From NCBI GenBank assembly GCA_018896525.1, contig JAHIMR010000065.1, forward strand, positions 8,205 to 72,204: a stretch of 64,000 nt of DNA. Direction: 5' to 3'. Numbering within the stretch: the stretch's first letter is position 1; the number at the start of each line of letters is the position of its first letter. The translations under genes and the position numbers were made by a program. Below the pieces are notes generated by a model that had not been told where the DNA came from, searched no databases, and saw nothing but the letters and a program-made list of their open reading frames with translations. Shown one piece after another: positions 26,905-44,351 of the stretch. This stretch comes from Actinomycetota bacterium (GTDB lineage: Bacteria > Actinomycetota > Geothermincolia > Fen-727 > Anoxymicrobiaceae).

Positions 26905-26995
26905 CGGTTGGCAAGAAAAGACCGCCACCAAGTGGGGTCAGCGCCTTATAGCGGTGGCCGGCATTAAACGTTATGGCGAGAAGACCCCTCCCTTC
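26905..26995. repeat. family-3-like motif copy (CCACCAAGTGGGGTCAGCGCC ... GTTATGGCGAGAAGACCCC)
   Basis: Matches motifs of the 23.05-23.35 kb array. Overlaps the 3' end of the brxA-like gene. Confidence 0.5.
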
Positions 26996-30028: not shown

Positions 30029-31080
30029 TCCGGTATCGCGAAGTCGTTGTGGACGCCCACCGTAGCCAGCTCTATGCAGCCATTTGGCAATTCCCAGAAG
30101 TGAAGATGGTATTCGTGATCTATGTCGCGTCTCGATGCCTTGGCGTTGTCGGAGGACCGCCTCCGCGGCGGGTCGCTGCCGCCTGGACTGGTTCTCAGGG
30201 GGTGGATCGACCGCAAGCTCTGTTTGTCGATAGCTTCACAGACGGCACGCAGTGCCCTGTCCGGGAACCCAGGATCAGCGTCCCTGCTACATTGCCTGAT
30301 GGCACCCTCGAAATGGTCACCGATGACCATACCACCAATGTTGTCCCAATTCGGCTCCTCATGCCTTTCGATACGGGACTTGTAGAGTCGGATGCGAATC
30401 GCGATCTCTATACCTGCAATATCGGTTGAAGCGGTCAATACCGCAGATTCGTCGATGCAGGTGAGGAGTCCCCTGAAATCATCGCAGGCGAGAACATCAC
30501 CTTCAAAATATTCAGGTGGGATCGGGACGTCCGACAACTGGTCATCCCTTTCGTGCTCGATCTCATGAACAAGGGCTCGAACGCGAATCGTGCGTTCCGG
30601 ACAATGCTTGAGGATAAGGGCGTTCTGTAGGATGTCCCCTTGACAATGCTTCCGGAGGATGGCCAGGAGGAGGATGCAACGAGCCAGATCCGTTTGCAAG
30701 CCATGCCCGGTGCAGAACTGCATCACATCGGGACTAGTAGAGAGGTCCTCGGACAAAGTGTCACGGACGCGGTAGTAGGTTTCGAACGACGGCGTGTGCT
30801 GAAGCAGTCTATTGATTACTGCCGCCACTGTGTTGATGTCATACTCTTGGATACCGTGGTGTGAGAAGAGTAGGCGCAGGTGTTCTCGGACCGGAAATAG
30901 CTCATCGGTAGACAGAGCCTCGGAGGCATACTCGCTCATACACAGCGCGATCCACGGCTCGTCGAGCAATTGGGCCCAGTCGAGAATCCGCTCCACGTAG
31001 CCATGAACGTCCTCGGCTGAACCGTGAGCCTGCGGAACGGCAAGCACTCCGGCATCAATGGTGACAGTGGCGCTGCTCAT
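30025..31080 (-). CDS. hypothetical protein (351 aa), partner of the upstream ABC ATPase
   Basis: No recognisable motifs. The acidic HEIEHERDD segment was noted. Sits 2 nt downstream of the ATPase stop, in the slot where BrxHII would be. Confidence 0.5.
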   Translation of the reverse strand: MSSATVTIDAGVLAVPQAHGSAEDVHGYVERILDWAQLLDEPWIALCMSEYASEALSTDELFPVREHLRLLFSHHGIQEYDINTVAAVINRLLQHTPSFETYYRVRDTLSEDLSTSPDVMQFCTGHGLQTDLARCILLLAILRKHCQGDILQNALILKHCPERTIRVRALVHEIEHERDDQLSDVPIPPEYFEGDVLACDDFRGLLTCIDESAVLTASTDIAGIEIAIRIRLYKSRIERHEEPNWDNIGGMVIGDHFEGAIRQCSRDADPGFPDRALRAVCEAIDKQSLRSIHPLRTSPGGSDPPRRRSSDNAKASRRDIDHEYHLHFWELPNGCIELATVGVHNDFAIPE

Positions 31081-31082
31081 CG

Positions 31083-32990
31083 CTACTTACCCCTCTGCTT
31101 CTTCCGCTTCGCGGCGGCGGCTCTAAGGATAGCCTCTGCCTCACGCTGGTTCTGATCGAAGAAGCCATCTGGCCAATCGAGGATGGCACCGAACTCGTTT
31201 ACGCCGACTTTGCGGAAGACCGAACCGTCATCATCCCGCTCCACGAAGTAGAGACGGACCGCCTCAAGCCAGGGATTGGTCGTTGCAGCCGCGGCAGTTC
31301 GGAAGCGAATGCGATTCACAAGGTATTCGCTGTGTGTTTCGAGAACACATTGCTTCCCAAGCTGTGTCATGGAGAGAAAGAAATCTGCAAGGAGTGTCTG
31401 CACTCTGGGGTGCAGGTGTATTTCAGGCTGCTCGAAGATCAGCGTCGTATCAGGGTCAGCAAGCAAGCTGGAGACAAGGATAGGAAGAACCTGACTCACT
31501 CCAACCCCAACGTGAGTCAGGTCGTGGTACCGCGTCCCGCCCGTAATGCTGACGACGAGTTCGTGGCCAAACTTGCCTTTGTCCTGGCTTTGGATACTTT
31601 CGGCGACGCCAAGGTACTGGAGCCAATCAACGACTGCCGCTTCAAGCGTCCTCGTTGTTGGTGTTGGCACCACCTCATCACCGATAAATGCGGAAGTCGG
31701 GATATAACGGATGGGGCGATTCTTGTGCAGTTCAAGAACAGCTGCGGTGTGCTCTCCCTTTAGGCCGACATCCGAAGGATCGACTGTCGGGGAAAGCGGA
31801 TAGAGGGGCTTGGGCTCATCCCGAAGCGGGCCAAGGTAACGTACCGAGTTGGTAAAGAATTGATCGGTATACCAGCATGCTTCGGTTATACTGTTTGGAG
31901 ATGGGTAGAGAATGACATCGAGGTCCTCTCCCTGTTCTTTACACATAGCGTCATTAACCAAGCTCTCGAGGTTCGGATATTCCGCAATCTGGCGATGGAA
32001 CTCCATCCTGGCACGAGACGATATTCGCCCGAACGCATCGAGGAATGTTTCCATGAAAACGGCAGACTCGTCGAATAGAGGCCGCTGGCTGAAGGCATTC
32101 TCAAGCGATTCTCGAAGGTCAGACCCTTCCATTTTTCTGGCTATATCCAAAATGCAATCAATAACAGGTTTTGGCACGATGCCTTCGCGGCCAACAAAGA
32201 GACGACGCGGCATTCTGCGCGGGCTATCTCCGATTAGGGTGCTGACGATGAACCGAGTGGTTTCCGGCACTAGATCGACGCCGAGTGCAATCCGCTCGGG
32301 AAGGAAATGCCGTAGGATACAGCCGATAGGCTTGGCCGATACCATATCTTCGTGAATCTCCGCCATCGATGCATCATCGAGATCAACCTCATACTGCATA
32401 CTGGCGCGTAGGATGTCGTCGCCGGCTTCGGTGGCTTCAGTCCATCTATGCTTTGATGTCGTATCAGTTGTCGTTGCGCGACGAATCGAAATGGAGTATG
32501 GGCGGTCACTGCCCTCGGCGTCGCGAGTTATAGAAGATACAACCGACGAGAACAAACGAGGTTGGAGCTGAGTAATTTCTCTCTGTGTGCCCGAATCATC
32601 AGTGTCAAAGCTGATTTCACACGACACGGATGATATGGCATACCTTTGCCTGCCGTAGAATGTGGGAGCACGGCGGGATGCCGCAACTCGCATGCCTGCC
32701 ACCTTGGGATCATAGACAGGCTTGCATGTCCAGCCTATGACAATCTGGCTCGCATCGCTTTCAGCACTCTTGAGATCGTCAAACTGCCCCAGTTTGGCGA
32801 GTGCCCCGTTGAGAACCACAGAGCGCGAACTGACCTTGTTTGCCAAAGTCTGAGCGACGAGCAAGATGGATTGCAGCAACGTGCTCTTACCGCTGCTGTT
32901 CGCACCTGCGAATATTGTCAGCGGTGCGAATTCCAACTCGGTCTCATTGCGGACCGATTTGAAGTTGAACACCTTCCACTTGGTGATCAT
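31083..32990 (-). CDS. ABC-type ATPase of the AAA_15/AAA_21 (OLD / PARIS-AriA / Septu-PtuA-like) family with DUF3696-like C-terminus
   Basis: 635 aa. Walker A FAGANSSGKSTLLQ, C-terminal LIFEQPEIHLHPRVQ (Walker B plus H-loop signature of this family) and WPDGFFDQ tail. Confidence 0.7.
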   Translation of the reverse strand: MITKWKVFNFKSVRNETELEFAPLTIFAGANSSGKSTLLQSILLVAQTLANKVSSRSVVLNGALAKLGQFDDLKSAESDASQIVIGWTCKPVYDPKVAGMRVAASRRAPTFYGRQRYAISSVSCEISFDTDDSGTQREITQLQPRLFSSVVSSITRDAEGSDRPYSISIRRATTTDTTSKHRWTEATEAGDDILRASMQYEVDLDDASMAEIHEDMVSAKPIGCILRHFLPERIALGVDLVPETTRFIVSTLIGDSPRRMPRRLFVGREGIVPKPVIDCILDIARKMEGSDLRESLENAFSQRPLFDESAVFMETFLDAFGRISSRARMEFHRQIAEYPNLESLVNDAMCKEQGEDLDVILYPSPNSITEACWYTDQFFTNSVRYLGPLRDEPKPLYPLSPTVDPSDVGLKGEHTAAVLELHKNRPIRYIPTSAFIGDEVVPTPTTRTLEAAVVDWLQYLGVAESIQSQDKGKFGHELVVSITGGTRYHDLTHVGVGVSQVLPILVSSLLADPDTTLIFEQPEIHLHPRVQTLLADFFLSMTQLGKQCVLETHSEYLVNRIRFRTAAAATTNPWLEAVRLYFVERDDDGSVFRKVGVNEFGAILDWPDGFFDQNQREAEAILRAAAAKRKKQRGK

Positions 32991-35818
32991 ACCTCACCTC
33001 CTGTTCTTGTCAGCGCCTGGTCGTACCACATGAGGAGTTTCGGGTCTTCCTGGAGGACGTTCTCGGGTATCTTGCGGGCCACGGCGATGATCGTGGCGTA
33101 TTCGTGCTCCTGCCAGGCCTTCTTGAATCCGGCGCGAACGGCCTCCACGCGGAACACCTTCAGGCGTTTCTGTTTGGACTGGCGATACTCCTCGAACTCG
33201 CGCATAAGAGCCCGCTCGCGCAGTTTCTCCAAGTCGCCTGCCTTGTTCGGGTCAGGCACGTACCAGCGGTCCTTGGCCTTGGCCTTGAGCGTCGGGTCAT
33301 CTTTTACCAGGTTGCGCAGTTCCTTGAAGTTCGAGGAGAGGTAGCTGTGGATCTGGCTCGGCACCTCGCCCTTACCGTCGCAACGTAGGAAGTTTTGCTC
33401 CAGCAGTTCATCAAGCTCGAGCATCTTTTCGTTCTTTTGCCAGCCACCAATCTCCTGCATGAATTGCGGCTTCAGATCACCTGCCGTTTGCGGTTTCTTC
33501 GTTAGTTGTTGTTTGAGCCACTGGATGGCCGAGGCTTCGTCGGAAACTAGAAGCTGAAGCTGGAGTACCTCTTTGACCGTCATTCGCTTCTTGTCGTACT
33601 CGGCTGCCTGATCTGGCAGGAAATACATACCGTCGCGTGGAGTAAAGCGTTGTTCCAGTCCCGCATAGAATTCAGCAGCAGATAGAGGCACCGTGGTTCC
33701 TCGTTGGACGTGGAAAGCAACCATGCGATCAAAGAGCAGGTGACTCTGCCGCTCCGGTATCATTTCTGCCATTCCGTTTGTGGATACAAATACTGGAAGT
33801 TGCTTGAGATGCGTACGGACAACATCCCAAACACCCTCTTCGGTACCGGCTGTAAGTTTGAAGCGCTCCGCCAACCCGCCATTGGGCTTATAAGCAGAGA
33901 TAACCAAGTCTTTGTTCACAGCGTTTGCGTTGAGCTGCTTCTTCGTCAGCATTCCTTTGTCGAGAACGCGGACATCAGCAATGATAAACCCCGCTTGACC
34001 CAAAGCTTCTTGTATGGCCGTCCAGACGGAATTCTTTGAATTATGAAACTCGATTGTCACCCAGCGACCGGGTTTCAGAAGCCGGTACACCTCCTTGAGA
34101 CAGGAGGTCATCATCAGCGTATAAACCGCCAGGTCCTTGTCCTGCGTCCCGCTCACTACGGCATCTTGCGCTGCGTTTGTGAACACTCGAAGCCATGCTT
34201 CCCACAGAAAATTCAGTTCAGCATAAGGTAGGTTGTCTCCAAATGGCGGATCGATGAAAACATAGTCAACAGAGTTGTCTGGACCGAGTATATATGCCAA
34301 TGACTGAGTAGTAACCATCGTGCCGCTTTCAGAAGATGGAACAGCCTTCCTAAAGCGCTTGAGTTTTCCGGTCAGGACGTATGTTGGACTCGGCTCACTT
34401 ACTATCGAACCTAAATACAACGTGCCGCTGAGAGACCGGTTAACCTGGGAGTATGCGTTCTTTAGGAATCTATTGCGACGAGTGAAGCTCACGACGATGC
34501 CTTGAAGTGTGAACCGCCAGAGACGTTTCGCTTCCTCTGAAGGCAGATCGTCGGCGCTATGCCAAAGGATGGAGAAAGCAACAAGCTGGCGTACAAGATG
34601 AAAATCGTGAACCCGACTGATGCCCTCATGGTAGCCTCGATAGAGATCGCCCCATTCTTCGCCTTCGGGCGTGAACATCATTAACTCGGTGGGGTAACCA
34701 ATCTGCTCCAGCATCTGCTCGATCTTCGCCAGAACTTGAATGTCCTTTTCGTTCGGTAGCTTTTTCTTCTTGGCCCCTCGGTGGCGGTAGCAGATTTCGA
34801 CCGGTTTGAGAATCTGTTTACTACGGGTGGCCCCAACAGCCTTGTCATAGTACTTCGTTGTGCAACGGATAAGATCTCGTTTTGAAACCTTGGCAGAGCA
34901 GTGCAGGCAAGTTGGATTCTCAACGATCTTACCGGATGAAGCATCATATGCCAGTGCCCAAAATTCTAACTCGCCTGAGCAGTGAGGACAACTGAATACC
35001 TCTGACCAAACTGTAAAATCGATCTCGCAGACATCCCCTGACTTGGGGTCCGTGGTCTGGTACATCCATCCGTATTCGCGATTGAACTTCTTGAGCAACT
35101 CTGCAGCGAGTTTGGGGAATGATTCAGGGTTCCTTGTCAGGTTATATCCGGCCGCGATAAGCGTCGCTGCAGGAGAGAGATCATTCAGAATGGCCTTTCG
35201 GCAACCTTTACTTCCTATGTTCTGGCCGTTCTCATCGAAAAGCTGATCATCGGCTCTGGGTGTGTACCCAAGCGCCGCGAGAGTGCTTGGATCATCGCAT
35301 AGTTGTGCGGCTACACCGGTCATCCCCGTCCCACAGAATCCATCAAAAACCACATCCCCTGGCTCGGTATAATACAGGATATACCGCATGATGGCCTTGT
35401 GCGGAACCTTAGTGTGGTAGGAGTGGGCGTTGTAAATTGGGTCGTTCTTTCCTTCGCTGACATCCGCGGCAAATGGTCCCCGCCGGTAATCGTCTGTCTT
35501 CTGGTCATACGGTTTCCCGTACTGCTTGACAAAATCCTCGATGAACGGGTTCGGGCAGGCGGTGTAGTACGGAGGATCGGACAGGGCCAGGATGTCCTCG
35601 TCCTCGCCAATCGGGAATCCCTCAATCTTGCGGAACTCCGGGTCCTTGAGATCCTCGCGTAGCTTCTCCAGGAAATACTCTCGGCGTTTCTCGTCGTTCT
35701 CGAAGGTCAAGCCCAGGCATTCAACGGGCCCCTGCGTCTTGGCAGCGGGTTCCAGGTCGAAAAGACTATGCTCGTGGCGTTCCTTTACCATCAGCCTCTC
35801 CTCAATCCCCGCCAACAA
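32987..35818 (-). CDS. pglXI: BREX type 3-like adenine-specific DNA methyltransferase PglXI (N6_N4_Mtase, PF01555-type)
   Basis: 943 aa. SDPPYY, then VVFDGFCGTGMTGVAA (SAM-binding motif I), then a second FIDPPFGDNLPY motif. Coupled by 4 nt to the downstream ATPase. Confidence 0.7.
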   Translation of the reverse strand: MLAGIEERLMVKERHEHSLFDLEPAAKTQGPVECLGLTFENDEKRREYFLEKLREDLKDPEFRKIEGFPIGEDEDILALSDPPYYTACPNPFIEDFVKQYGKPYDQKTDDYRRGPFAADVSEGKNDPIYNAHSYHTKVPHKAIMRYILYYTEPGDVVFDGFCGTGMTGVAAQLCDDPSTLAALGYTPRADDQLFDENGQNIGSKGCRKAILNDLSPAATLIAAGYNLTRNPESFPKLAAELLKKFNREYGWMYQTTDPKSGDVCEIDFTVWSEVFSCPHCSGELEFWALAYDASSGKIVENPTCLHCSAKVSKRDLIRCTTKYYDKAVGATRSKQILKPVEICYRHRGAKKKKLPNEKDIQVLAKIEQMLEQIGYPTELMMFTPEGEEWGDLYRGYHEGISRVHDFHLVRQLVAFSILWHSADDLPSEEAKRLWRFTLQGIVVSFTRRNRFLKNAYSQVNRSLSGTLYLGSIVSEPSPTYVLTGKLKRFRKAVPSSESGTMVTTQSLAYILGPDNSVDYVFIDPPFGDNLPYAELNFLWEAWLRVFTNAAQDAVVSGTQDKDLAVYTLMMTSCLKEVYRLLKPGRWVTIEFHNSKNSVWTAIQEALGQAGFIIADVRVLDKGMLTKKQLNANAVNKDLVISAYKPNGGLAERFKLTAGTEEGVWDVVRTHLKQLPVFVSTNGMAEMIPERQSHLLFDRMVAFHVQRGTTVPLSAAEFYAGLEQRFTPRDGMYFLPDQAAEYDKKRMTVKEVLQLQLLVSDEASAIQWLKQQLTKKPQTAGDLKPQFMQEIGGWQKNEKMLELDELLEQNFLRCDGKGEVPSQIHSYLSSNFKELRNLVKDDPTLKAKAKDRWYVPDPNKAGDLEKLRERALMREFEEYRQSKQKRLKVFRVEAVRAGFKKAWQEHEYATIIAVARKIPENVLQEDPKLLMWYDQALTRTGGEV

Positions 35819-38096
35819 GACGCAAAGTTCGCTTCACAAACCCATGCAACTCATCTGAGAATATGGGTTCTGAGTCGGCATTCGGATTCTGCTCGTGGTG
35901 ATATTTCTTGGAATATTCGTTTATTGCTTCAAATTCTAGGAGGTCGTCCTTAGCATGTTGAAGCCCACTCGCGCTATCAGCACCACGTATCTTGCTGATA
36001 AAATCCCCAAGCCATTCATTGGGTTGAAAGTACCCGGGGAAGTGCACCCGGAGCATTCCCTCAAGAAAGGGGCGAATCGCACGCGCCACATCGAGCGATG
36101 TTCCGCTACGGTCCCGATAGAAGTTCAACAGGGTGGAGTAGTCCTTCTGATAAGTGCTTAGGGTCTCTTCCTCTATGTCCCACTCGCCAAGTTTAGTATT
36201 GTTACCCGTCCGGAATAATTGCAGCGTTCTCATTTCACTGGATGAATGGCCGTCGGAGACCAACTTCAAGAAATGAGGGTCATGAGATAGAACGATGACC
36301 TGTTGCGCTGAGCAAGATAGACCACGAATAAGCTGCTGAGTGCAGGTGCGCCGAAAACGGTCGAGGCTGGTGAATGGGTCGTCGAGCACGACGATCTTGT
36401 TGCCGAGGTTCGCGTCTTGCTTCAACGCGGCCAGAAAGAACGCCAGGGCAAGCGCGCTACGGTCGCCTGAACTCAACGTTGTTTTGAAACATGGCGTGCC
36501 GGCCGGTGTTCGGCTATCGCCAAGATCGACAGATGTGTTGTTTATCTGGATTTGAAACTGCGAACTTGGTGTTCCCCCGCGATAGCTATGTTGCGTGTTT
36601 ACTATTCGAAAACCCGTGTTGAACTGGTCCAGATACTCGTTGATCGCATGCTCGTAGGTTTGGAGGATACTCTGACGCTGGTCAAGCTGCTGCTTCGCGG
36701 TATCCTTCTGTTGTTCAAGATCGTTCTTATCGATCAGTGCATCCTGATAGTCCTGACACGCCTGAACCATATCCGGCTCGAAGCGCTTCTTCTTTGCCTC
36801 CAGGTCGGCGAGTTCTTGCTTCAGTGAGTTGATATCGCCGCCTTGCTGAACGGCTGTCTTCTGTTCAGTGATGCGGGCATTGCTGGCAGCAACGGCGGCG
36901 TTGTAGGTGTCCACAGCCTGTTGAAGTGATTGCACTTCATTGAGCGCGGTTGTGAAATGATCATTCGGAGTTACCGCTTCCACCGGGTTCTGCTGCTTGC
37001 GCTGCGCCAACGCCAATGCAAGTCCCCGTAGTCTCGCACAATTGGCTTGGACATTCTGAAACGGAAAATCCGGAACGCTGACTTCGGTAAACTGCTTCCA
37101 GAATTCGATGAGCGCCAAGTTGCCGGAGAGCGCTTGTTGCACGGCGTTGAGCGCCGTATCGCCGATGGCGATTGTGATGCGCTGGCTGAGTCGCGCGACT
37201 TCCTCTTTGAGAGTCTTGTACGCCGTGTTGAAATGCGAGCGGTAAGCGGCACTCAAGTCATTAAACTGGATGCCCTGGCCACAAAAGGGACAAAGGTCAT
37301 TCCTCACGTATCCCATGCCTTGTGAGAGCCATGTCTCACCCTGGTTCCCCATTTGGTGGCTGGCGATTTGCTGCCGGACGCACGTTTCGGCATCGGCGGT
37401 GATGTCCGTTAGTTTCTTCCCAAGAATCGTGAGGAAGTCTTCGGGAAATGTGGGTAGTGAGATCTTGGCGAGTAGCGCCTTGGACTGAATCTCGGTTGCT
37501 TTGTCCAACGCGAGTTGACGGTTAGCGATCTCCGTGTTCTTCTGTTGAATCCTACTTTCAATGCCATCAACCGGCTGCCAGGCAAGATATGACTCAAGCG
37601 TTACCCGATTGGGCAGGGTTCTTGATACGGCTTCTTTCTTTGTCCTGATGTCTGCGTTCGCGTCGCGAATCTTGCCGTCCAGTTCTTCAATCTGTTTGGC
37701 GAGTTGAACGCCTTGCGTCCCGACGATAACCCGATAAAGGTTCTTCTTCTGCTCGTGGTCCACATAGTCCCCGGCGTAAACATTGTCGTGGATGAACACG
37801 GAATCGAAGATGGCAATGTCGGGGTGTATGGCGGACCATGCGTTGTTGGAGAAGGTAAGGGTGCTGTTTCCCAGACGCATCTGGACGGAAGCCGCTTCGT
37901 TGGTACCAAGGGTCTTTCGTTCGGAAATGAACTCGGGTTGGCCGGTCTGCAACGAACGGAGAATAGCGCACAGCATGGTCTTGCCCCGCCCGTTTTCCGC
38001 GAAGAGGAGCGTTAGATTCCGAAAGGCCACGTCGCCTTTCGGGCAACAATCACGGAACCGGCCAATGTTCTTGATGCTGATGAACTTCTCAATCAT
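35802..38096 (-). CDS. RloC/PrrC-like ABC ATPase (AAA_13) with coiled-coil insert, CxxC zinc hook and putative C-terminal anticodon-nuclease-like domain
   Basis: 764 aa. Walker A ENGRGKTML, long coiled-coil with CPFCGQ, D-loop VVLDDPFTSLD, and C-terminal R-x3-E...(35 aa)...H spacing resembling the PrrC ACNase triad. Confidence 0.55.
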   Translation of the reverse strand: MIEKFISIKNIGRFRDCCPKGDVAFRNLTLLFAENGRGKTMLCAILRSLQTGQPEFISERKTLGTNEAASVQMRLGNSTLTFSNNAWSAIHPDIAIFDSVFIHDNVYAGDYVDHEQKKNLYRVIVGTQGVQLAKQIEELDGKIRDANADIRTKKEAVSRTLPNRVTLESYLAWQPVDGIESRIQQKNTEIANRQLALDKATEIQSKALLAKISLPTFPEDFLTILGKKLTDITADAETCVRQQIASHQMGNQGETWLSQGMGYVRNDLCPFCGQGIQFNDLSAAYRSHFNTAYKTLKEEVARLSQRITIAIGDTALNAVQQALSGNLALIEFWKQFTEVSVPDFPFQNVQANCARLRGLALALAQRKQQNPVEAVTPNDHFTTALNEVQSLQQAVDTYNAAVAASNARITEQKTAVQQGGDINSLKQELADLEAKKKRFEPDMVQACQDYQDALIDKNDLEQQKDTAKQQLDQRQSILQTYEHAINEYLDQFNTGFRIVNTQHSYRGGTPSSQFQIQINNTSVDLGDSRTPAGTPCFKTTLSSGDRSALALAFFLAALKQDANLGNKIVVLDDPFTSLDRFRRTCTQQLIRGLSCSAQQVIVLSHDPHFLKLVSDGHSSSEMRTLQLFRTGNNTKLGEWDIEEETLSTYQKDYSTLLNFYRDRSGTSLDVARAIRPFLEGMLRVHFPGYFQPNEWLGDFISKIRGADSASGLQHAKDDLLEFEAINEYSKKYHHEQNPNADSEPIFSDELHGFVKRTLRLVGGD

Positions 38097-38184
38097 GTGT
38101 GGATCTTCCCGCCTTGTTCACTGAACAAATTCCGGTACCTTTTTCAGGCTTGTCCATTGCGCGAGTCTCATCTGCCGCCGGCAC

Positions 38185-38250
38185 GACGCTCTTCACTTGG
38201 TCACCCAAGAACTGACCAAATGGTCTCAAGTTGGTCACTAACTTGGTCAC
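38185..38250. promoter_or_regulatory. direct repeats of TTGGTCAC (3 copies, plus the related TGACCAA) upstream of the RloC-like gene: candidate operator/internal promoter
   Basis: TTGGTCACCCAAGAACTGACCAAATGGTCTCAAGTTGGTCACTAACTTGGTCAC in the 150-bp gap between the AlbA_2 regulator stop and the RloC-like start. Confidence 0.35.
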
Positions 38251-39812
38251 TCGCCCTCTCTTTCGTTTGTTGACAGGAATCCCCGCCCCTTTTCCGTGAG
38301 CCGGTATTTTTGCAGGCGGCTGTTCGGTTTCTCCGGAATTGTGTATTCTATGTATCCGGCCTTCATCGCAGGGTGTAGGTAGTTTTGGCGAAATGTCGGC
38401 CGATGCTTGATATCAAGAGCTTCGCGGAGTTCTCCGGAAGACATTTCGCTCTCTTGGAGTAAGATCAAGAGTCGCTCAAATTGGGAGGCCGACTGGGTCG
38501 GTGACTGGGTCGGTGACTGGGTCGGTGACTCTGGCCGAGTAGCCCCGAACATGGCCTTCATGAGGTCCGAGGCCATGTCCACTTCCTTGTCCAACTCAGG
38601 GATAAAGAGCTCGAACGCCTTCCAGGCACGGTCATTCTTGTATGTTGGGGCTGGATGCCCCACCGCCTGCCATTCCTCGCGCATCATTCGCATGCCCGTA
38701 CCGGCCTGTTCGCACATGGCGATACGCCGCATTGCGGCAGTGATGCCGGGATTGCGAACTTCCTTTTCGCCCGGTTCCATAAGCCGAGAGTCGTCGCCGA
38801 ACACATCGCCGGGATTCCAGAACTGAATGCCATCGCGAAAGAATTTGATGACCGCTTTCCGGGAATGATCGCCGTAATCCTGGTGAATCAGCAGGTTCAT
38901 GGCAGCCTCTCGGAATACGCGGAATCCGGGCGGATCGTCACGGCGCCCGAGGGTTACCGGGTCGATATCCCTGAAGGGCTTGGGCATGAAGAACTTGTAT
39001 TTTGCGACCAGTTGTTCCCAAGCATGGATGATGTTCTCTTCACAGACAATCCGGTCGATCCAGCGAGTCCGCGGCATTTCTTCATTCGTCGCATAGCCGA
39101 GAAACTGAACATCCAGCGTCGGCCTGGGAATCAGTTGATGAACCGCGAGTGAAGACCCGAACAGCATGATAGCTCCGTGGGTCGGAATCCGTCGTTTTCC
39201 GTCCTTGATAAGATATCCCCACCGGTAGAGGAAACTCTCGTCGGGTTCTTCCGAATCGGTACCGCTGTTTGCCGAATGGAATCGGTCACGAAACCAGCGA
39301 AGGCTGCTCGGTTCGAACGCTTCTTCGAGCAGTACCCGCTCGAAGGGCTGGCTGTCCCACCGGTCGGCTGTGGCGTCGCGCAGCATACGCTCGATGTCCT
39401 GCATCTGGGCTCGGTAGTCTCCACTACCCTTGCGGAGGAACGTACGCCGAATATCGCCGTCCAGATACACCGGTTTGCGGGTACGGGGATTTTCGGCGAT
39501 GTGGAAGGCCAGTACAATCTTGTCGTCTATGTGGAATCGCTGCTCGTTAACCTGTACATCGTGGTTGACTTTCTGGTCGGCATGAAGCAACGAAAGAAAA
39601 TCGCCTTGCACCTTGTCAGGTTTATCGACGCCAATAACTTTGAACTCTTCACCGTGCTGACCAATACCAAACACCAAGCGACCGCCGTGGGTATTGGCGA
39701 ACGCGGAAATGGTCTCGAACGCTGACCTGGGAACTGCCGTACGAGCTTCCTTGAACTCGACATCGTTCCATTCCCCCGCTTCCAGCAGTTCTTTTAATTC
39801 CGCGATTTTCAT
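38247..39812 (-). CDS. AlbA_2/Schlafen-like DNA-binding domain plus HATPase_c_4 protein (RecG-C-terminal-like putative transcriptional regulator) with C-terminal winged HTH
   Basis: 521 aa. N-terminal ELKELLEAGEWNDVEFKEA...ISAFANTHGGRLVFGI is the PF04326 signature. SPTQSPTQSPTQS linker and C-terminal wHTH. Confidence 0.7.
   Translation of the reverse strand: MKIAELKELLEAGEWNDVEFKEARTAVPRSAFETISAFANTHGGRLVFGIGQHGEEFKVIGVDKPDKVQGDFLSLLHADQKVNHDVQVNEQRFHIDDKIVLAFHIAENPRTRKPVYLDGDIRRTFLRKGSGDYRAQMQDIERMLRDATADRWDSQPFERVLLEEAFEPSSLRWFRDRFHSANSGTDSEEPDESFLYRWGYLIKDGKRRIPTHGAIMLFGSSLAVHQLIPRPTLDVQFLGYATNEEMPRTRWIDRIVCEENIIHAWEQLVAKYKFFMPKPFRDIDPVTLGRRDDPPGFRVFREAAMNLLIHQDYGDHSRKAVIKFFRDGIQFWNPGDVFGDDSRLMEPGEKEVRNPGITAAMRRIAMCEQAGTGMRMMREEWQAVGHPAPTYKNDRAWKAFELFIPELDKEVDMASDLMKAMFGATRPESPTQSPTQSPTQSASQFERLLILLQESEMSSGELREALDIKHRPTFRQNYLHPAMKAGYIEYTIPEKPNSRLQKYRLTEKGRGFLSTNEREGE
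38478..38530. repeat. 12-bp tandem repeat (GGTCGGTGACTG x3.5) encoding the SPTQ linker
   Basis: Direct reading of the sequence. Confidence 0.8.
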
Positions 39813-39849
39813 TGCCGCAATCCGTGTCTATCCGTGGTCATCCGTGGTT

Positions 39850-42800
39850 CTACTCCAAGACTATTCTAACCTTGCCGGGCTCCTTGCCCCTGGTGAGTTC
39901 GTCCAGGTACTCCTCGAACCGCTTCTTCATCTCGGCAGGTGTGACCGGTGAACCGCCGGAGAGCAGCGCCGCGCGCAGGTCCGTGATCTTGACCGGCACC
40001 TTCTGGAGTCCGGAAAGCACTTCCCCCATGGCATAGATGAAATACTGGTCAAGTTCGTCCGGCAGGGCACGCTTCTCGATGAAGCCGTCTACGAGCTTCT
40101 TGTAGTCGGGCTTGAGTAGGTCGAGGTTGACACGGGTGTTCGGGTCCTCCAGATTGGTCAGCAGCGTCTGGGTCCAGTTCTCCACCTGCTTATCCAGCTC
40201 CCCGTCCAGGCCGTCCAGGACCGTGCCCGCTGGTGCCTCCGGCGGCTCCGCGCCAGGCTTGAAATTGCAGTGAGGGCAGACGGCCGAGGCGTCCATTTCC
40301 TGCTCGGTGAGCGCGAAGCAACTCGTCAAGGCAGCGAGACGGTTCTGGAAATCGGTCAAGTGCTGACGGGGCATCAATTCGATAGTGGAGAGCTTCCGCA
40401 GCACCTGGAGTCGCTCATCGCCCATGAGGGCAGTCTTGTGTTTGTCTTCGTTCACGCCCAGCCGAGCTTTCGCGTGCAACGCCAGGTAGACCCTCACGTA
40501 GGCCCTCTTGAGATCGATCAATTTGCGTTGGGTCTGCTGGCGAAAGGTGGCCTCGCCACGTTTGTCCGGATCGCCGAACTGGGCGAGAACCTCGTCACGC
40601 GCCTTTTTCATCTTACCCACCCACTCGTGTTCCGTGGGTAGGACCGCCTCGGCCGTCGAGAGGAACGACGCGGTGGAACCGAGATCGGCCGCCAGTCCCT
40701 GGAGGGATTCGATCTCGGCCAGGGAATTGAGCCCGTCGCGGTGACCGGTCACCTCCCGGGCATCGTAACGGAAATTCTTGAGCTTGCCGGGCGAGGTATA
40801 GGCTTGGAGCGATTCCAGAAAGGTCTTGGTTTCATCGAGCCGGGAGCGAAGCTTCCGCGCCTCTTCCTCGGCCAGCAGGTTCCGGCCCCAGAAGAGCAGA
40901 CCGTCTTGCAGGTTCTGTTGCAGGAGAACAAGTTCCTCCACCGATTCTGATATGGCCTTCTGCAACTGCTGCACCGGCTCGTCCTTGCCCTGGGTTACCA
41001 AATGAGCCATGCCTGGTGTGAGCCCGAGCAGTTCGAACAGAGCCTTCAGGGCCGGTAAATTCCAGCCCTTGGGTTGCTCGATATGCTTAAACTGCATCAG
41101 TTCATCCACGCCGGTTCCGGCCAACTGCGGCAGGCCGTTAGCGTCGAATTTCTTGCCCGGGATGGCGAGAACCAGATCGCCGGTGTAGACCAACGTGGCC
41201 AGGACGACCGCCACCCATTCCGGCTCCAGCCGGTACCGGTCCTTGTCCATGTATTCTACGCCCTTGTCGTCCTGGATCAGCTCGGAGCGATTGACCACCT
41301 GACCATGGCCCTTCTTCTTGAGCTGTCCGAGGATGTACTTGGCATATTTCGAGTTGTAGGGATCGAGCCGTTCACCGTCGAGTAACTCCAACGCGTCCAG
41401 CACCGCCGTGGCCTGTTTGGTGCGGTTCTGACCGGCGATGGCGCGCAGGGCGTCCTGCGCGGCCTGTCCCCGGTTGGTCCCGGTGATGAGGACCGAGAAG
41501 AAAGGATGCTCGGGTGCCTGGTCCTGGAAATGCGCTCCCAGGCAAATGCCGGCGATGGTGTTCACCAGGTCGCGGAAGTTGATTCGCTCGCGGGAGCCGA
41601 TTCCGGACAGCTCACGTATCGACATACCCTTGGACCACTCGGTGAGCGACTTGGCGCGTCCCTGGTAGGTCACCTCGAAGGCTTCCGTCATGTGCTTTTG
41701 CAGCCACTGCACCAAGTCCCGGAGAGAATGGGATGACTTGGATTCGTAGGTGGCCTTGGCGTGCCCCGACGAGGTGGAAGCCAGGTCCAGGGCCGCGGCG
41801 TAATCCCTGAGCGCTGTGCGAAACTCGTCGTCTGCGTTGGTGAGCCGTAGAAACAGTTCATCGGGCTTCTTCTCGTCTTTGAAGTGTGGCGCATCAAAGG
41901 GCTGAATGAAGTAGAGGTAGAAATCGCGCGGCGGAACGGCGGTGGAACGCTCGTTGGGCGCGCCGAAGAAGAGATAACCCTGGCGTGCGGCCTTCCGCTC
42001 CAACCACTCCAACTCGTGCTGCCAGATCTTGTAGCCGGTGACGTAGGTCTGGTCCGTGCACTCCATGACCCGTTTCAGTGCCTCGTAGTAGTAGCGGTCA
42101 AGTTGAGAAGAGTCGAGGCTTTCAGCGCGCTTCTCGATCAGCGCGTCGAAGTCGTCGGTCTTCTTCAGGTCCAGGTAGAATTGCCGGTTGTCAGGGTTGA
42201 AGGAGATGAACTGGCCACTGACCGTCCTGTGGATCTCACGCAGGACTGTTTCCACCTGGGAGAGCAGGTCGTCAGCCGGATCGCCGCCCAGTTCCTCGAT
42301 ACCCGGTTGATACAGGCAGAGCCCGTCACGGAGCTCCTCGGCCGTCGCTCCAAGGGTGGTGTAGATGTCCCCCGTCGTAAGCCGCTGGACCGACAGGGCA
42401 TGGATGAGCCGCAGCGCCATGGTCTTGTAGGTTGGACGCGTGAAGGCCTGCTGGATGCGCGACTCCAGCACCTGGCTGCAGTCGATCACCGCCTTGATAT
42501 CCGGCACGGCACGGAAGGACGGGTTCTCTCGGAGATTGGTCCAGTAGGTATCGTAGGCGATCAGCCCGGGCCAGTTGTCTGGGACATCCTGGTCAAGCAA
42601 TTTCTTCATGGCCAGAGACAGGGTCTTGAGCACTTCTCGCTTTTCCACAGCGGTGACCCGCTCGAAGGTGTCGATGTAGTCGGGGTGCACTGGGAAAAGA
42701 CGGACGAACTCGTCCATGCGCTCGTGCATGTGGCCGTAGAACCTACCGAAGGGTGTGAGGTACTCGCGTATCTTGATCTGCTGTTCGCCGGTCTTCTTGA

Positions 42801-43578
42801 GCAATCGCTCGGCAACCACGAACTTGACATCCTTACGGGCGATGAGAATCTGCTCGAAGCGGTCCTTTACCCGGCGAACGCTGTCTGCCACAAAGGAAAA
42901 CCGGGGGCTGTCGAAGATAGCCTCCTGAACGCCAGCTATGAAGCGGAAGCGCAGGTCCTTGCAAACCTCGCCGATCTCGCGGAGGAAGTTCAGGTCGAGA
43001 ATGAGTTCCTGGTCCTTGCGGGTGCGCAAGTAATCAAGCAGTTCATCCACCACCAAGAGCAGGCCGTGTTCGGGAAACTCCTGGTGGAAGGCGGTCATCA
43101 TCTCCTCGAACGAGCGCTTGTTGCCGGACACCTCGGAGGCTGATGGGAAGCCATAGCTCACGCCCATCGCGGCCAAGTGCTCCTCCAGTTCGGCTATGAG
43201 GATGTCTCGAAGGGACATGGTCGTGGCCCCGATCTCAGTGCGCACAACCTTGAATCGGCCGGCTATTATCTCCGCGGCATCCGCCACATCCTGGTTGTTG
43301 AGGCAAGGGGCAAACTCTGGATTCTCGGCAAGCCCGGAGAGCACCGACATGAGGTGCGACTTGCCGGTGCCGTAGTTGCCGACCACCAGCAGGCCTTTGT
43401 TGTTGGTGGGATGCTCGAACTGCAACTGGGGTATGACAAGACCAACCAGCTTTTCCGCCATCTCATCGGAAATGACATAGGTTTCGATAAGCCGCCGGGC
43501 CTCAGTCGCTTCGTCGGCGTCTCGCAGTTGGATCACGGACTCGATAGGTTCAAACTGGATCAGGTCACCGTATTTCAT
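39850..43578 (-). CDS. brxC: BREX ATPase BrxC/PglY
   Basis: 1242 aa. N-terminus [24 protein letters not shown]...[20 protein letters not shown] is the hallmark BrxC start with Walker A. Confidence 0.85.
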
Positions 43579-43630
43579 CGCGTCTGCTCCTCCGCTCCCT
43601 TGTATCGGAATCTGCTGGAATCTGTTATCT

Positions 43631-44110
43631 TCACTTCGTCACCTCCGGGCTTGCCACCAGAAAATCACGCACCGGGTATCGTCTGTACTCCGGGTGAGCC
43701 GGGGCGGCATAGGTCAAAGAACCGTCAACGATGGAGCCGTTCCATGCGGCAACCACAGTCTTATTACGCGAGAGTCCCTGGAGCAGCCGAAGCGGGTCCT
43801 GCTTCAGACCAACGTCGAACATGACTTCTATGTTGTCGAGCAGGATCATCTCGTCATCGCCATTATCGACGATCTCTCGAAGAAGACGCGGCAGCCGCAA
43901 GGCTCGCTGGCGCTCGGTCAAATCAAGCATTCGGCGGGATATCTCGAGATTGACATTCACCAGGGGCGCACCCATGCGATCCCGTACATCCAAGAGAGCA
44001 GTGGTTTTTCCCGCGCCCGCCAGCGCTATGACCAGTATCAGCCGGTGATAGAGTTCGGCGGTCTGCTTGACCTTTCGTACAATCTGATCAGCAAGGGGCT
44101 CCGCCATCAC
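43631..44110 (-). CDS. brxF: BREX type 3 small P-loop protein BrxF
   Basis: 159 aa with Walker [15 protein letters not shown], immediately upstream of brxC as in type 3 BREX. Confidence 0.6.
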
Positions 44111-44129
44111 TGTTCTCCCTTGTCCCTAC

Positions 44130-44351
44130 TCATTTGCGTTCATTTTGCTTGCGATCATCCTTGGCCTCGTCGGCTCCGCCCGTTTTAACCCACTCGTCCA
44201 CCTCTTCCTTGCGGAACTTCCAGAGGCGGCCGATCTTGTGCCCAGGCATATTTCTTTCACTTATCCACCTGTAAACGGTATCCCGCTTGACGCCGAGATA
44301 AGCCGCGATCTCATCCACGGAGAGCCATCGATCTTCCATCATTATCTCCAC
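44130..44351 (-). CDS. excisionase/AlpA-like MerR-type HTH DNA-binding protein (HTH_17)
   Basis: 73 aa: WLSVDEIAAYLGVKRDTVYRWISERNMPGHKIGRLWKFRKEEVDEWV is a classic Xis-family HTH. First gene of the island operon. Confidence 0.7.
   Translation of the reverse strand: MEIMMEDRWLSVDEIAAYLGVKRDTVYRWISERNMPGHKIGRLWKFRKEEVDEWVKTGGADEAKDDRKQNERK

What the first reader, a model, noticed from the sequence alone, without database searches (positions are those of the whole stretch)
38185..39812. AlbA_2/Schlafen-like ATPase regulator with SPTQ tandem-repeat linker and TTGGTCAC operator-like repeats downstream
A Schlafen-type DNA-binding plus HATPase_c_4 plus wHTH protein sits between brxC and the RloC-like gene. 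The 150-bp gap after it contains 3 direct copies of TTGGTCAC and the related TGACCAA, just upstream of the RloC-like/pglXI sub-operon. This suggests an internal regulated promoter. The SPTQ linker is encoded by a perfect 12-bp x3.5 tandem repeat, which could be slippage-prone and length-variable.
Basis: partly seen in the sequence, partly recalled or inferred. Interest (0 to 1): 0.55.

Follow-up and report, generated by a model that had tools for sequence, protein, structure and literature searches.

The report
Schlafen RNase gene inside BREX operon
The gene is an ordinary member of a recently described family of bacterial Schlafen RNase–ATPase defence proteins that sit inside BREX anti-phage operons, and the repeats after it are a real, conserved DNA element of unknown function that belongs to the BREX operon, not to this gene.

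Summary
A 521-aa minus-strand ORF (38247-39812) carries SLFN_AlbA_2, HATPase_c_4 and Fic-like_C wHTH domains. It has a perfect 12-bp x3.3 repeat in its linker and TTGGTCAC x3 plus an inverted copy in the 150-nt gap after it.

The regulator/operator interpretation is mostly not supported.
- **The protein.** It has an intact, invariant Schlafen RNase motif (E14-x4-E19-x-K21) and belongs to the published Schlafen-GHKL-HTH class. That class is already reported inside BREX loci of more than 1000 taxa as accessory effectors.
- **The repeats.** They are a conserved ~55-nt element: GTGACCAAG, 22 nt, inverted copy, 8 nt, GTGACCAAG. It occurs in ten distinct type 3 BREX-like loci. One locus has no Schlafen gene between brxC and pglXI, and two have a different nuclease there. 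Where pglXI follows directly, the element ends exactly 21 nt before its ATG. The element does not track the wHTH subtype. Its function is unresolved: there is no sigma-70-like promoter, no Rfam hit and no significant RNA covariation.
- **The linker repeat.** It is family-wide (74 of 76 homologs; 2-14 copies; periods 12, 11 and 9). Copy number differs between close relatives, and the repeat marks the joint where wHTH modules are shuffled.

Overall this is a new member of a known kind, with a modestly interesting unexplained cis-element.

The parts
38247..39812 (-). CDS of a 521-aa prokaryotic Schlafen RNase / GHKL ATPase ('Schlatpase') / wHTH protein
   Evidence: ORF and translation. Pfam SLFN_AlbA_2, HATPase_c_4 and Fic-like_C. 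About 2000 homologs. Foldseek best match is 3LMM (DIP2311). The identical protein, in the same gene order, is found on 13 public contigs.
39750..39773 (-). Codons for the Schlafen catalytic motif E14-x4-E19-x-K21 (EWNDVEFK)
   Evidence: E14, E19 and K21 are invariant in alignment A1 of 30 homologs. The motif Ex4(E/D)xK is defined as catalytic in PMC13056530.
39408..39773 (-). SLFN_AlbA_2 nuclease domain (aa 14-135)
   Evidence: Pfam PF04326, E 1.4e-15. PDB 2KYY matched by sequence and by fold.
38628..38852 (-). HATPase_c_4 (GHKL-type ATPase) domain (aa 321-395). The N-box residues E302, N306 and D312 lie just upstream of it.
   Evidence: Pfam PF13749, E 3.7e-12. Invariant E302, D312, G335, G371 and G373 in A1. 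A PADLOC pAgo profile covers aa 27-392, corresponding to the SLFN-GHKL half of SLFN-pAgo.
38491..38530 (-). Perfect 12-bp x3.3 tandem repeat (coding-strand unit ACCGACCCAGTC) encoding the SPTQ linker between the ATPase and the wHTH
   Evidence: Tandem Repeats Finder. A linker repeat is present in 74 of 76 homologs, with period 12, 11 or 9. The same DNA unit is read as TDPV in L039, L042 and L043.
38295..38483 (-). C-terminal Fic-like_C winged helix-turn-helix module (aa 444-506), HRPTFR subtype
   Evidence: Pfam PF21247, 94.6 bits. PDB 4RGL Fic C-terminus, E 2.2e-15. pLDDT about 90 in the model. Its identity between homologs is nearly uncoupled from that of the N-terminal core (Spearman 0.16).
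38196..38250 (-). Conserved GTGACCAAG element. Direct copy 1 is at 38242-38250 and contains the stop codon. Direct copy 2 is at 38230-38238. The inverted copy is at 38212-38219. Direct copy 3 is at 38196-38204.
   Evidence: The same element with fixed spacing occurs in L004, L012, L026, L052, L082, L084, L085, L086 and L087. It ends 21 nt before the pglXI ATG in L004, L012, L085 and L087.
38114..38128 (.). Perfect 15-bp palindrome TTGTTCA-N-TGAACAA, 17 nt upstream of the AAA_13 start codon. It is one symmetric substitution away from TTGGTCA-N-TGACCAA.
   Evidence: The TTGGTCA-N-TGACCAA form occurs twice in the L078 Schlafen linker.
39820..39848 (-). 10-bp x2.8 tandem repeat (ACCACGGATG / ACCACGGATAG / ACACGGATTG) in the 37-nt brxC-to-Schlafen gap. 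It includes an 11-codon uORF (39809-39841) whose stop codon overlaps the Schlafen ATG.
   Evidence: Related ACG(G/A)ATAGACACG(G/A)AT motifs occur in L006 and L091.
39850..43578 (-). brxC (type 3 BREX), upstream neighbour
   Evidence: Pfam DUF6079 1885 bits; PADLOC BrxC 2053 bits.
35802..38096 (-). AAA_13 ATPase (PADLOC candidate system PDC-S06). It is an extra accessory gene lying between the element and pglXI.
   Evidence: The same order Schlafen-element-AAA_13 is seen in L052. The gene is absent from L085 and L087, where pglXI follows the element directly.
32987..35818 (-). pglXI methyltransferase (type 3 BREX). The public gene call starts at 35791.
   Evidence: PADLOC PglXI 1334 bits. Gene call in L088.

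Best explanation
The ORF encodes a prokaryotic Schlafen protein of the SLFN-GHKL-HTH ('Schlatpase-HTH', 'HisKinase-HTH') class. It is carried as an accessory gene at the brxC|pglXI junction of a type 3 BREX operon.

Most likely mechanism (inferred by homology, not shown here). The N-terminal Schlafen domain is a tRNA-cleaving RNase effector. [quoted passage not shown] The C-terminal wHTH, on its repeat linker, acts as the sensing or tethering module. Activation during infection shuts down translation, giving an abortive-infection type of back-up to BREX.

The GTGACCAAG repeats are a separate, conserved ~55-nt cis-element of a subset of type 3 BREX loci. Its ancestral place is the leader of pglXI, 21 nt before the ATG. 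Accessory genes are found on either side of it: this Schlafen gene, a DUF1016-like nuclease, and AAA ATPases. Here the Schlafen ORF simply runs into it and uses its TGA as the stop codon. The element most likely acts as a sequence-specific binding site, on DNA or on the polycistronic RNA, that controls expression of the downstream methyltransferase sub-operon. The binder is not identified, and nothing points to this wHTH in particular.

The 12-bp linker repeat is a family-wide, slippage-prone DNA repeat. It changes linker length, not reading frame, in this gene. It marks the joint at which wHTH modules are exchanged.
For: **Protein class.**
- Pfam architecture.
- Invariant E14, E19 and K21, and invariant GHKL N-box and G-box residues.
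- A PADLOC SLFN-pAgo profile covers aa 27-392.
- Foldseek and phmmer match 3LMM, 2KYY and 4RGL.
- PMC13056530 defines the Ex4(E/D)xK motif, shows tRNase-based defence for two other Schlafen architectures, and counts HisKinase-HTH fusions as 19.2% of prokaryotic Schlafens.
- Preprint 10.64898/2026.05.29.728809 shows ATP/GHKL-driven tetramerisation and tRNA cleavage in SLFN-pAgo. It reports that more than 90% of Schlatpase proteins carry a C-terminal HTH.
- PMC12839542 reports Schlafen-HisK-wHTH genes within BREX loci of at least 1017 taxa.

**Position.** The Schlafen gene lies between brxC and pglXI in L006, L008, L009, L012, L026, L036, L044, L075, L080, L094 and L102.

**Element independent of the Schlafen gene.**
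- L085 reads brxC-element-pglXI. L084 and L086 have a DUF1016-like ORF before the element. L087 reads element-pglXI.
- The intergenic element (three or more sites) follows the Schlafen gene in 5 of 13 Schlafen-containing BREX-3 loci and in none of the other 67 Schlafen loci. L003 keeps a two-copy remnant.
- The cores are invariant and the N22/N8 spacing is fixed in 10 instances.
- Element-bearing genes have different wHTH subtypes.

**Linker repeat.**
Against: - No member of the HisKinase or HisKinase-HTH Schlafen classes has yet been shown to defend. Of the seven systems tested in PMC13056530, only the DUF262 and Ig-like fusions were active. Effector activity for this class is therefore an extrapolation.
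- The AlphaFold model is poor in the ATPase region (pLDDT below 50 for residues 228-441, pTM 0.30), so no structural check of the ATP site was possible.
- The function of the element is not established. There is no promoter-like site, no Rfam family, and only 2 compensatory cells in the best helix (36-44 of 500 shuffles reach that).
- The canonical element was absent from all 8 BREX-3 loci sampled through pglXI homologs. It is therefore dispensable for BREX-3.
- The contigs that carry the element without an adjacent Schlafen gene are short (2-6 kb). A Schlafen gene elsewhere in those operons cannot be excluded. L096 has one downstream of pglXI.
Confidence: 0.6

Rival explanations
1. The protein is a DNA-binding regulator. 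Its wHTH binds the GTGACCAAG repeats and controls an internal promoter for the AAA_13/pglXI sub-operon.
For: - A confidently predicted wHTH is present, with fold matches to MarR/ArsR-type repressors and to centromere-binding proteins.
- Direct and inverted repeats start at the gene's own stop codon.
- A second perfect palindrome of nearly the same sequence lies 17 nt before the AAA_13 start.
- Long-form Schlafen genes in BREX-3 loci carry the same motif inside their own linker.
- In L003 two copies stay attached to the Schlafen 3' end outside any detectable BREX context.
Against: - The element occurs without an adjacent Schlafen gene (L085) and after a different gene (L084, L086).
- Genes next to the element have unrelated wHTH subtypes (HRPTFR, NRTGNFKK, NRTRFR, HKSVSGAV), while the element's cores stay invariant.
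- Schlafen loci outside BREX-3 lack the full element.
- The RNase catalytic motif is intact and invariant.
- No sigma-70-like promoter was found in the gap.
Confidence: 0.12
2. The element works at the RNA level. In the polycistronic transcript the inverted copy pairs with a direct copy, in alternative hairpins (copy1:inverted or inverted:copy3). This would give a processing site, a 5' stabiliser or a translational operator placed a fixed 21 nt before the pglXI start codon.
For: - The orientation relative to transcription is the same in all 10 instances.
- 85-88% of cells pair in both candidate helices, against 6-46% when the partner columns are slid.
- Single-sided changes are mostly G-U compatible on the sense strand (TGATCAAG in L004 and L052; AUUUGG in the window). 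L012 has a compensatory AGC/GCU change.
- The predicted minimum-free-energy fold of the gap contains both hairpins.
- The distance to the pglXI ATG, with the Shine-Dalgarno sequence in between, is exactly 21 nt in 4 of 4 loci.
Against: - Covariation is not significant: 0 compensatory pairs in helix A, and 2 cells in helix B that 36-44 of 500 shuffles also reach.
- The fold z-score is only -1.87.
- The cores are invariant in sequence, which a purely structural element does not need.
- In L078 the inverted and direct copies abut with no loop (TTGGTCAGTGACCAA), which fits a DNA palindrome better.
- There is no U-tract, so it is not an intrinsic terminator.
- No Rfam match.
Confidence: 0.25
3. The element has no present regulatory role. 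It is either a relic or a recombination joint related to the linker repeats. That is, it is a stretch of xDQV-type 12-bp repeats (AGT GAC CAA GTT) left by cassette or module exchange at the brxC|pglXI hot spot, or used for such exchange.
For: - Copies 1 and 2 are a 12-bp tandem (92% identical) that would translate as SDQV SDQL. Linker repeats of relatives are ACC GAC CAA GTC (TDQV) (L036, L044).
- DUF1016-like ORFs read through the first copy as GSDQ.
- Long-form Schlafen genes carry the motif in frame inside the linker.
- The junction holds many alternative cassettes.
- wHTH modules are shuffled at the repeat.
- The distribution is patchy and does not follow pglXI similarity.
- In L003 the element is broken after copy 2.
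Against: - A decaying relic would not keep invariant cores, an inverted copy and exact N22/N8/21-nt spacing across phyla.
- No wHTH-coding remnant follows the element.
- No recombinase is associated with the junction. The only recombinase genes, an IS607-like resolvase with TnpB, lie beyond brxA.
- No target-site duplications were seen.
Confidence: 0.18

Closest known systems
Prokaryotic Schlafen (pSlfn) defence nucleases, HisKinase-HTH class (Perez Taboada et al., Nat Microbiol 2026, PMC13056530)
   Same: N-terminal SLFN_AlbA_2 domain with the Ex4(E/D)xK motif. Histidine-kinase-like ATPase plus HTH fusion, the second most common architecture (19.2%). Location in a defence island.
   Different: Only DUF262-Slfn and Ig-like-Slfn were shown to defend and to cleave tRNA. 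The HisKinase-type members that were tested gave no protection. Trigger and activity for this class are unknown. This copy sits inside an operon rather than standing alone.
'Schlatpase' supra-domain and SLFN-pAgo (Kuzmenko et al., bioRxiv 10.64898/2026.05.29.728809)
   Same: SLFN plus PF13749 GHKL ATPase module. A PADLOC SLFN-pAgo profile aligns to aa 27-392. Most Schlatpase proteins are small and end in an HTH.
   Different: There is no Argonaute sensor. A wHTH on a repeat linker takes its place. ATP-driven tetramerisation and tRNA cleavage are inferred here, not tested.
Schlafen-RNase / minimal histidine kinase / wHTH genes embedded in BREX loci (NAR 2026, PMC12839542)
   Same: Exactly this architecture, reported next to or within BREX core loci in at least 1017 taxa and interpreted as back-up suicidal effectors.
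   Different: A term search of that paper found no occurrence of 'intergenic' or 'operator'. I did not read the whole text, so I cannot say it omits the intergenic element or the linker repeats.
DIP2311 (PDB 3LMM) and the Fic protein Dde_2494 (PDB 4RGL)
   Same: 3LMM is the best full-length fold match (Foldseek E 7e-8). The 4RGL C-terminus shares the repeat linker plus the HRPTFR-type wHTH (phmmer E 2e-15; its linker reads GDQVTDQV).
   Different: Both are structural-genomics entries without known function. 4RGL has a Fic domain instead of the Schlafen-ATPase core, which shows that the repeat-linker-wHTH unit is a portable module.
HsdS of EcoR124I / EcoR124II (12-bp TAEL repeat in the central conserved region). 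From my own knowledge, not checked here.
   Same: An in-frame 12-bp tandem repeat encodes a tetrapeptide spacer between two modules of a defence protein. Copy number varies by slippage, and the repeat region serves as a recombination joint for module exchange.
   Different: In HsdS the copy number sets the spacer of the DNA target. Here no functional consequence is known, and in 10 of 76 relatives the period is 11 bp, so a slip would shift the frame.
Controller (C-protein) operators of restriction-modification systems, and BrxR operators of type 1 BREX. From my own knowledge and the title of bioRxiv 10.1101/2021.12.19.473356.
   Same: Short direct and inverted repeats ahead of a modification or restriction gene inside a defence operon. 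A small HTH gene (HTH_17, 44130-44351) heads this operon.
   Different: No binder is identified. The element is internal to the operon and is present in only a subset of type 3 BREX loci. HTH_17 is also present in loci without the element.

Membership tests
Prokaryotic Schlafen nucleases (pSlfn), Schlatpase-HTH class | SLFN_AlbA_2 domain above the Pfam gathering score | tested here: met
   PF04326, 58.3 bits against a cut-off of 25.3, aa 14-135.
Prokaryotic Schlafen nucleases (pSlfn), Schlatpase-HTH class | Catalytic motif Ex4(E/D)xK in the Schlafen domain | tested here: met
   E14-WNDV-E19-F-K21. All three residues are invariant in 30 homologs. The motif is as defined in PMC13056530.
Prokaryotic Schlafen nucleases (pSlfn), Schlatpase-HTH class | GHKL-type ATPase (PF13749) fused C-terminally to the Schlafen domain, with conserved N-box and G-box residues | tested here: met
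   PF13749, 46.5 bits against a cut-off of 26. E302, D312, G335, G371 and G373 are invariant and N306 is nearly invariant. The structure model of this region is of low confidence.
Prokaryotic Schlafen nucleases (pSlfn), Schlatpase-HTH class | C-terminal (winged) HTH | tested here: met
   PF21247, 94.6 bits. pLDDT is about 90 for aa 442-520, with wHTH fold matches.
Prokaryotic Schlafen nucleases (pSlfn), Schlatpase-HTH class | tRNA/RNA cleavage and phage defence | not testable with these tools
   Needs biochemistry and phage assays. No member of this exact architecture has been shown active in the papers read.
Type 3 BREX | Core genes brxF, brxC, pglXI, pglZ and brxA in one operon | tested here: met
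   PADLOC and NCBIfam hits: BrxF at 43631-44110, BrxC at 39850-43578, PglXI at 32987-35818, PglZ_3 at 27768-29807, BrxA at 26971-27771.
Type 3 BREX | BrxHII helicase | tested here: not met
   There is no helicase between pglXI and pglZ. An AAA_15/AAA_21/DUF3696 ATPase and a 351-aa protein lie there instead. PMC12839542 reports BrxHII in 77% of type 3 systems, so its absence does not exclude membership.
   The element is present without an adjacent Schlafen gene (L085) or after a different gene (L084, L086). The cores are invariant next to four different wHTH subtypes. No other Schlafen locus has the full element.
   No sigma-70-like site in 37900-40000 (0 found, 1.0 expected). Other promoter types are not covered, and there are no transcript data.
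Structured cis-regulatory RNA | Base pairs supported by covariation, or a match to a known family | tested here: inconclusive
   85-88% of cells pair, but there are only 2 compensatory cells and the score is not above the shuffles. No Rfam match. MFE z-score -1.87.
Slippage-prone (contingency-type) tandem repeat | Perfect short tandem repeat whose copy number differs between close relatives | tested here: met
   100% identical x3.3 here. L042 versus L043 (92.6% DNA identity): 12.2 versus 14.2 copies. L032 versus L033/L034: 4.5 versus 2.6 copies. Family range 1.9-14.2. Variation within this strain could not be tested, because the 13 contigs were found by exact protein identity.
Slippage-prone (contingency-type) tandem repeat | A unit length that is not a multiple of 3, so that slippage switches the gene on and off | tested here: not met
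   The period here is 12 bp, so only the linker length would change. Ten of 76 relatives have an 11-bp period.

The most novel reading that the evidence does not exclude
The GTGACCAAG element and the frame-independent 11/12-bp linker repeats may be two forms of one DNA-level signal. That signal would be used to exchange parts in BREX-3 islands. It would be a recombination joint, or a binding array for a still unknown factor. It would allow accessory effector cassettes (Schlafen, DUF1016 nuclease, AAA ATPases) to be swapped at the brxC|pglXI junction, and wHTH sensor modules to be swapped onto Schlafen and Fic cores. In effect this would be a built-in diversification system for defence operons.
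Probability: 0.1. Interest if true: 0.7.

Novelty: new member of a known kind. Interest (0 to 1): 0.38.

Why it matters
The gene is one more example of a Schlafen-ATPase-HTH accessory effector inside BREX, a class that is catalogued but has no demonstrated activity or trigger.

Three points go beyond the catalogue.
- The brxC|pglXI junction of type 3 BREX is a hot spot that holds interchangeable accessory genes.
- A sequence-invariant ~55-nt element with fixed geometry sits at that junction in a subset of loci from several phyla. It is a concrete handle for asking how expression of the BREX methyltransferase half of the operon is controlled.
- The linker repeat is conserved as DNA across reading frames, varies in copy number, and marks the point where wHTH modules are shuffled. 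This suggests how sensor specificity may diversify in this family.

None of these overturns current views, but each can be tested directly.

Tried and rejected
**Searches that found nothing**
- Rfam scan of 37900-40000 at E<=1: only a chance sRNA hit inside the CDS.
- blastn of the gap against 72,556 plasmids: no match.
- Pattern scan of viral contigs: 0 hits.
- Sigma-70 promoter and intrinsic-terminator scan: no promoter-like site, and the two terminator-like sites lie inside the CDS.
- The listing of cluster members on the protein: the exact sequence is not in that collection, so within-cluster copy-number variants could not be listed.

**Readings of the gap that were rejected**
- A 52-codon ORF (my own reading of the sequence) runs through the whole gap, from the GTG of copy 1 to a TGA overlapping the AAA_13 start. 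It was rejected because the frame closes after 5-8 codons in L004 and L085.
- By-eye comparisons with sigma-54 promoters, LexA boxes, integron attC core sites (GTTRRRY) and CsrA GGA motifs gave no convincing match. These comparisons rest on my own knowledge and are not tool results.

**Other ideas that were rejected or could not be supported**
- That the PglXI methylation site lies within the repeats: judged unlikely, because the cores are invariant next to PglXI proteins only 54-76% identical to the window's. This was not tested.
- That HTH_17 is the binder: its gene is also present in loci without the element (L091, L093, L096, L098), and 1-mismatch copies near the operon promoter are at chance level (17 observed, 13.9 expected).
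- That Schlafen and AAA_13 form a fixed two-gene system: the pair recurs only in L052.
- The AlphaFold model was too poor in the ATPase region to examine the ATP site.
Full report
**1. What is there.** All genes in this region are on the minus strand. They form a type 3 BREX operon, in this order:

| Gene | Coordinates |
|---|---|
| HTH_17 gene | 44130-44351 |
| brxF | 43631-44110 |
| brxC | 39850-43578 |
| ORF in question | 38247-39812 |
| AAA_13 ATPase (PADLOC candidate PDC-S06) | 35802-38096 |
| pglXI | 32987-35818 |
| NsnB-like AAA_15/AAA_21/DUF3696 ATPase | 31083-32990 |
| unknown 351-aa protein | 30025-31080 |
| pglZ | 27768-29807 |
| brxA | 26971-27771 |

The ORF encodes 521 aa with SLFN_AlbA_2 (aa 14-135), HATPase_c_4 (aa 321-395) and Fic-like_C wHTH (aa 444-506), all above the Pfam cut-offs. 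The identical protein, in the same gene order, lies on 13 public contigs, among them GCA_018898375.1.

TTGGTCAC occurs four times in the 64 kb (1.49 expected). Three copies lie within 54 bp, at 38197, 38231 and 38243, and an inverted TGACCAA lies at 38213-38219. The repeat at 38491-38530 has period 12, 3.3 copies and 100% identity. It encodes SPTQSPTQSPTQS. In the direction of transcription the gap reads GAG-TGA-CCAAG TTA GTGACCAAC ... TTGGTCAG TTCTTGG GTGACCAAG. The first copy therefore contains the ORF's stop codon.

**3. The protein is a Schlafen RNase-ATPase-HTH, not an evident regulator.**
- The N-terminus reads E14-WNDV-E19-F-K21. E14, E19 and K21 are invariant in an alignment of 30 homologs that are 48-75% identical to the window protein. 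Ex4(E/D)xK is the catalytic motif of Schlafen tRNases. Mutating it abolishes defence in RorSlfn5 (PMC13056530).
- The GHKL N-box and G-box residues are also invariant or nearly so (E302, N306, D312, G335, G371, G373).
- PADLOC's only hit is an SLFN-pAgo profile covering aa 27-392. [quoted passage not shown] The same preprint names the SLFN+GHKL unit 'Schlatpase' and reports that more than 90% of such proteins end in an HTH.
- PMC13056530 counts HisKinase-HTH fusions as 19.2% of 5,930 prokaryotic Schlafens.
- PMC12839542 reports this very architecture within or next to BREX core loci in at least 1017 taxa and reads it as a back-up suicidal effector.
- Fold and sequence searches give the expected relatives: 3LMM (DIP2311), 2KYY and the C-terminus of the Fic protein 4RGL.
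- The AlphaFold model is good for the Schlafen domain and the wHTH but poor for residues 228-441.
- Among 80 genomic loci with homologs, the gene sits between brxC and pglXI in about a dozen. The position is therefore recurrent.
- The AAA_13 gene is an extra insertion, seen again only in L052.

**4. The repeats are a conserved element of the BREX-3 junction.**
- The same arrangement follows the Schlafen stop codon in L004, L012, L026 and L052. These homologs are 67-74% identical to the window protein and come from different phyla.
- A metagenome scan with TGACCNAG-N22-TTGGTC-N10-TGAYCAAG gave seven loci. In L085 the element lies between the brxC stop codon and pglXI with no gene in between. 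That locus continues with the same NsnB-like ATPase and 351-aa gene as the window, so it looks like the 'empty-site' form. In L087 the element precedes pglXI. In L084 and L086 it follows a DUF1016-like nuclease ORF that reads into the first copy.
- In ten distinct instances the three cores are invariant or nearly so. The spacing is fixed: direct copy, N22, inverted copy, N8 (GT.....AG), direct copy.
- In all four loci where pglXI follows directly (L004, L012, L085, L087), the last copy ends exactly 21 nt before the conserved MAK start codon, with the ribosome-binding site in between.
- With one mismatch per site allowed, there is one cluster per locus and none at the operon promoter.
- The intergenic element (three or more sites) follows the Schlafen gene in 5 of 13 Schlafen-containing BREX-3 loci and in none of the other 67 Schlafen loci. 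L003 keeps only the first two copies.
- None of the 8 BREX-3 loci sampled through pglXI homologs has the canonical form. In most of those, brxC and pglXI are a few nucleotides apart, or a DUF2188 gene lies between them.
- The genes next to the element carry four different wHTH subtypes.
- Taken together, the element belongs to a subset of BREX-3 operons and to the leader of pglXI. It does not belong to this protein.

**5. What the element does is open.**
- No sigma-70-like promoter and no terminator lies in the gap. There is no Rfam match, no plasmid match and no viral-contig match.
- As RNA, the inverted copy can pair with either flanking direct copy. 85-88% of cells pair, against 6-46% for slid controls. 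There are no compensatory changes in one helix and two cells in the other, and 36-44 of 500 shuffles do as well. The fold z-score is -1.87.
- Invariant cores argue for sequence-specific recognition.
- Two observations lean towards DNA. In L078 the inverted and direct copies abut as a loop-less palindrome, TTGGTCA-G-TGACCAA, twice. In the window, a perfect palindrome with one symmetric change (plus strand TTGTTCA-C-TGAACAA, 38114-38128) lies 17 nt before the AAA_13 start.
- Three observations lean towards RNA: the constant orientation, the G-U-compatible variants and the fixed 21 nt to the start codon.
- I therefore commit only to 'cis-acting binding site controlling the downstream sub-operon', with the molecule and the binder unresolved.

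**6. A link between the element and the linkers.** Long-form Schlafen genes (616-620 aa) in BREX-3 loci carry direct and inverted copies of the same motif inside the coding linker. L094 has ACTGACCAAGCTGCTGACCAAG...ACTTGGTCACT, read as TDQAADQA...DLVT. L078 is similar, and L102 has the GATCAA variant. BREX-3 Schlafen genes without the intergenic element (L006, L036, L044) have GACCAAG-type linker repeats. Copies 1 and 2 of the element are themselves a 12-bp tandem that would read SDQV SDQL. I cannot tell whether this reflects common descent, a shared binder or coincidence.

**7. The linker repeat.**
- 74 of 76 homologs have a tandem repeat at the same place. The period is 12 bp in 59, 11 bp in 10 and 9 bp in 4. 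Copy number runs from 1.9 to 14.2, with a median of 3.9.
- The units share a core, CAAGTC/GAAGTC/CCAGTC.
- The window's unit ACCGACCCAGTC is read as SPTQ here and in L073, but as TDPV in L039, L042 and L043. The 11-bp repeats are read in all three frames. The repeat is therefore kept as DNA, not as peptide.
- L042 and L043 are 92.6% identical in DNA and have 12.2 versus 14.2 copies. Methylomonas relatives have 4.5 versus 2.6 copies.
- Identity of the N-terminal core and of the wHTH are almost uncorrelated (Spearman 0.16). 24 pairs have at least 75% core identity but at most 35% wHTH identity. The Fic protein 4RGL carries the same linker-plus-wHTH unit.
- The repeat therefore marks a module joint. 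In this gene a slip would change linker length only.

**8. Verdict.** The regulator/operator reading is largely not supported. The idea of a length-variable linker is supported at the family level. The protein is a new member of a known, catalogued kind whose activity in this architecture is still untested. The intergenic element is real and conserved. The two papers I term-searched did not yield it, but I did not read them in full. It is of modest interest until a binder or a phenotype is found.

Noticed in passing
window 39809-39848: A 10-bp x2.8 tandem repeat (ACCACGGATG / ACCACGGATAG / ACACGGATTG on the coding strand) fills the 37-nt brxC-to-Schlafen gap. It contains an 11-codon uORF (MTTDRHGLRQ*) whose TGA overlaps the Schlafen ATG. 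Related ACG(G/A)ATAGACACG(G/A)AT motifs lie after brxC in L091 and after the Schlafen gene in L006.
   Followed up: partly
window 38114-38128: A perfect 15-bp palindrome TTGTTCA-N-TGAACAA lies 17 nt upstream of the AAA_13 start codon. It is one symmetric substitution away from TTGGTCA-N-TGACCAA, which occurs twice inside the L078 Schlafen linker.
   Followed up: partly
window 44130-44351 (-) and upstream to about 44500: A 73-aa HTH_17 (Xis/AlpA-like) gene heads the BREX-3 operon. The same small gene precedes brxF in L091, L093, L096 and L098. By eye, TTGACA (44496-44491), then 16 nt, then TATATT (44474-44469) lies upstream. It is a candidate operon regulator.
   Followed up: partly
window 30025-32990: This operon has no BrxHII helicase. 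Between pglXI and pglZ lie an NsnB-like AAA_15/AAA_21/DUF3696 ATPase (635 aa) and a 351-aa protein with no family hit. The same pair follows pglXI in L085, L093 and L102.
   Followed up: partly
window 24975-26811: An IS607-like pair, a serine resolvase (26230-26811) and TnpB (24975-26249), lies directly downstream of brxA.
   Followed up: no
L084, L086, L091, L093, L094, L096, L097, L098, L100 (brxC|pglXI junction): The junction is a hot spot with interchangeable content: a short or long Schlafen gene, a DUF1016-like nuclease, an 82-aa DUF2188 protein, or nothing (6-15 nt gap).
   Followed up: partly
L006, L010, L014, L015, L017, L021, L027, L052, L064, L075 (Schlafen linker): These genes have tandem repeats with an 11-bp period inside the coding linker, so the unit is read in all three frames (for example QVGTKSALSRHQV). 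A one-unit slip would shift the frame and cut off the wHTH.
   Followed up: no
L102 4440-4480: A long-form Schlafen gene in a BREX-3 locus is split into two ORFs (455 and 161 aa) by a 22-bp tandem duplication. This is either a pseudogene or an assembly artefact.
   Followed up: no
window 26971-44351: GC3 is mosaic across the operon: brxC 0.79, pglZ 0.69, Schlafen 0.64, AAA_13 0.63, pglXI 0.61, NsnB-like 0.59. This is consistent with assembly from parts of different origin.
   Followed up: no
L003 2115-2145: In a contig with no detectable BREX genes, only the first two direct copies (TGACTAAG, TGACCAAC) remain at the Schlafen stop codon. The similarity breaks after copy 2.
   Followed up: no
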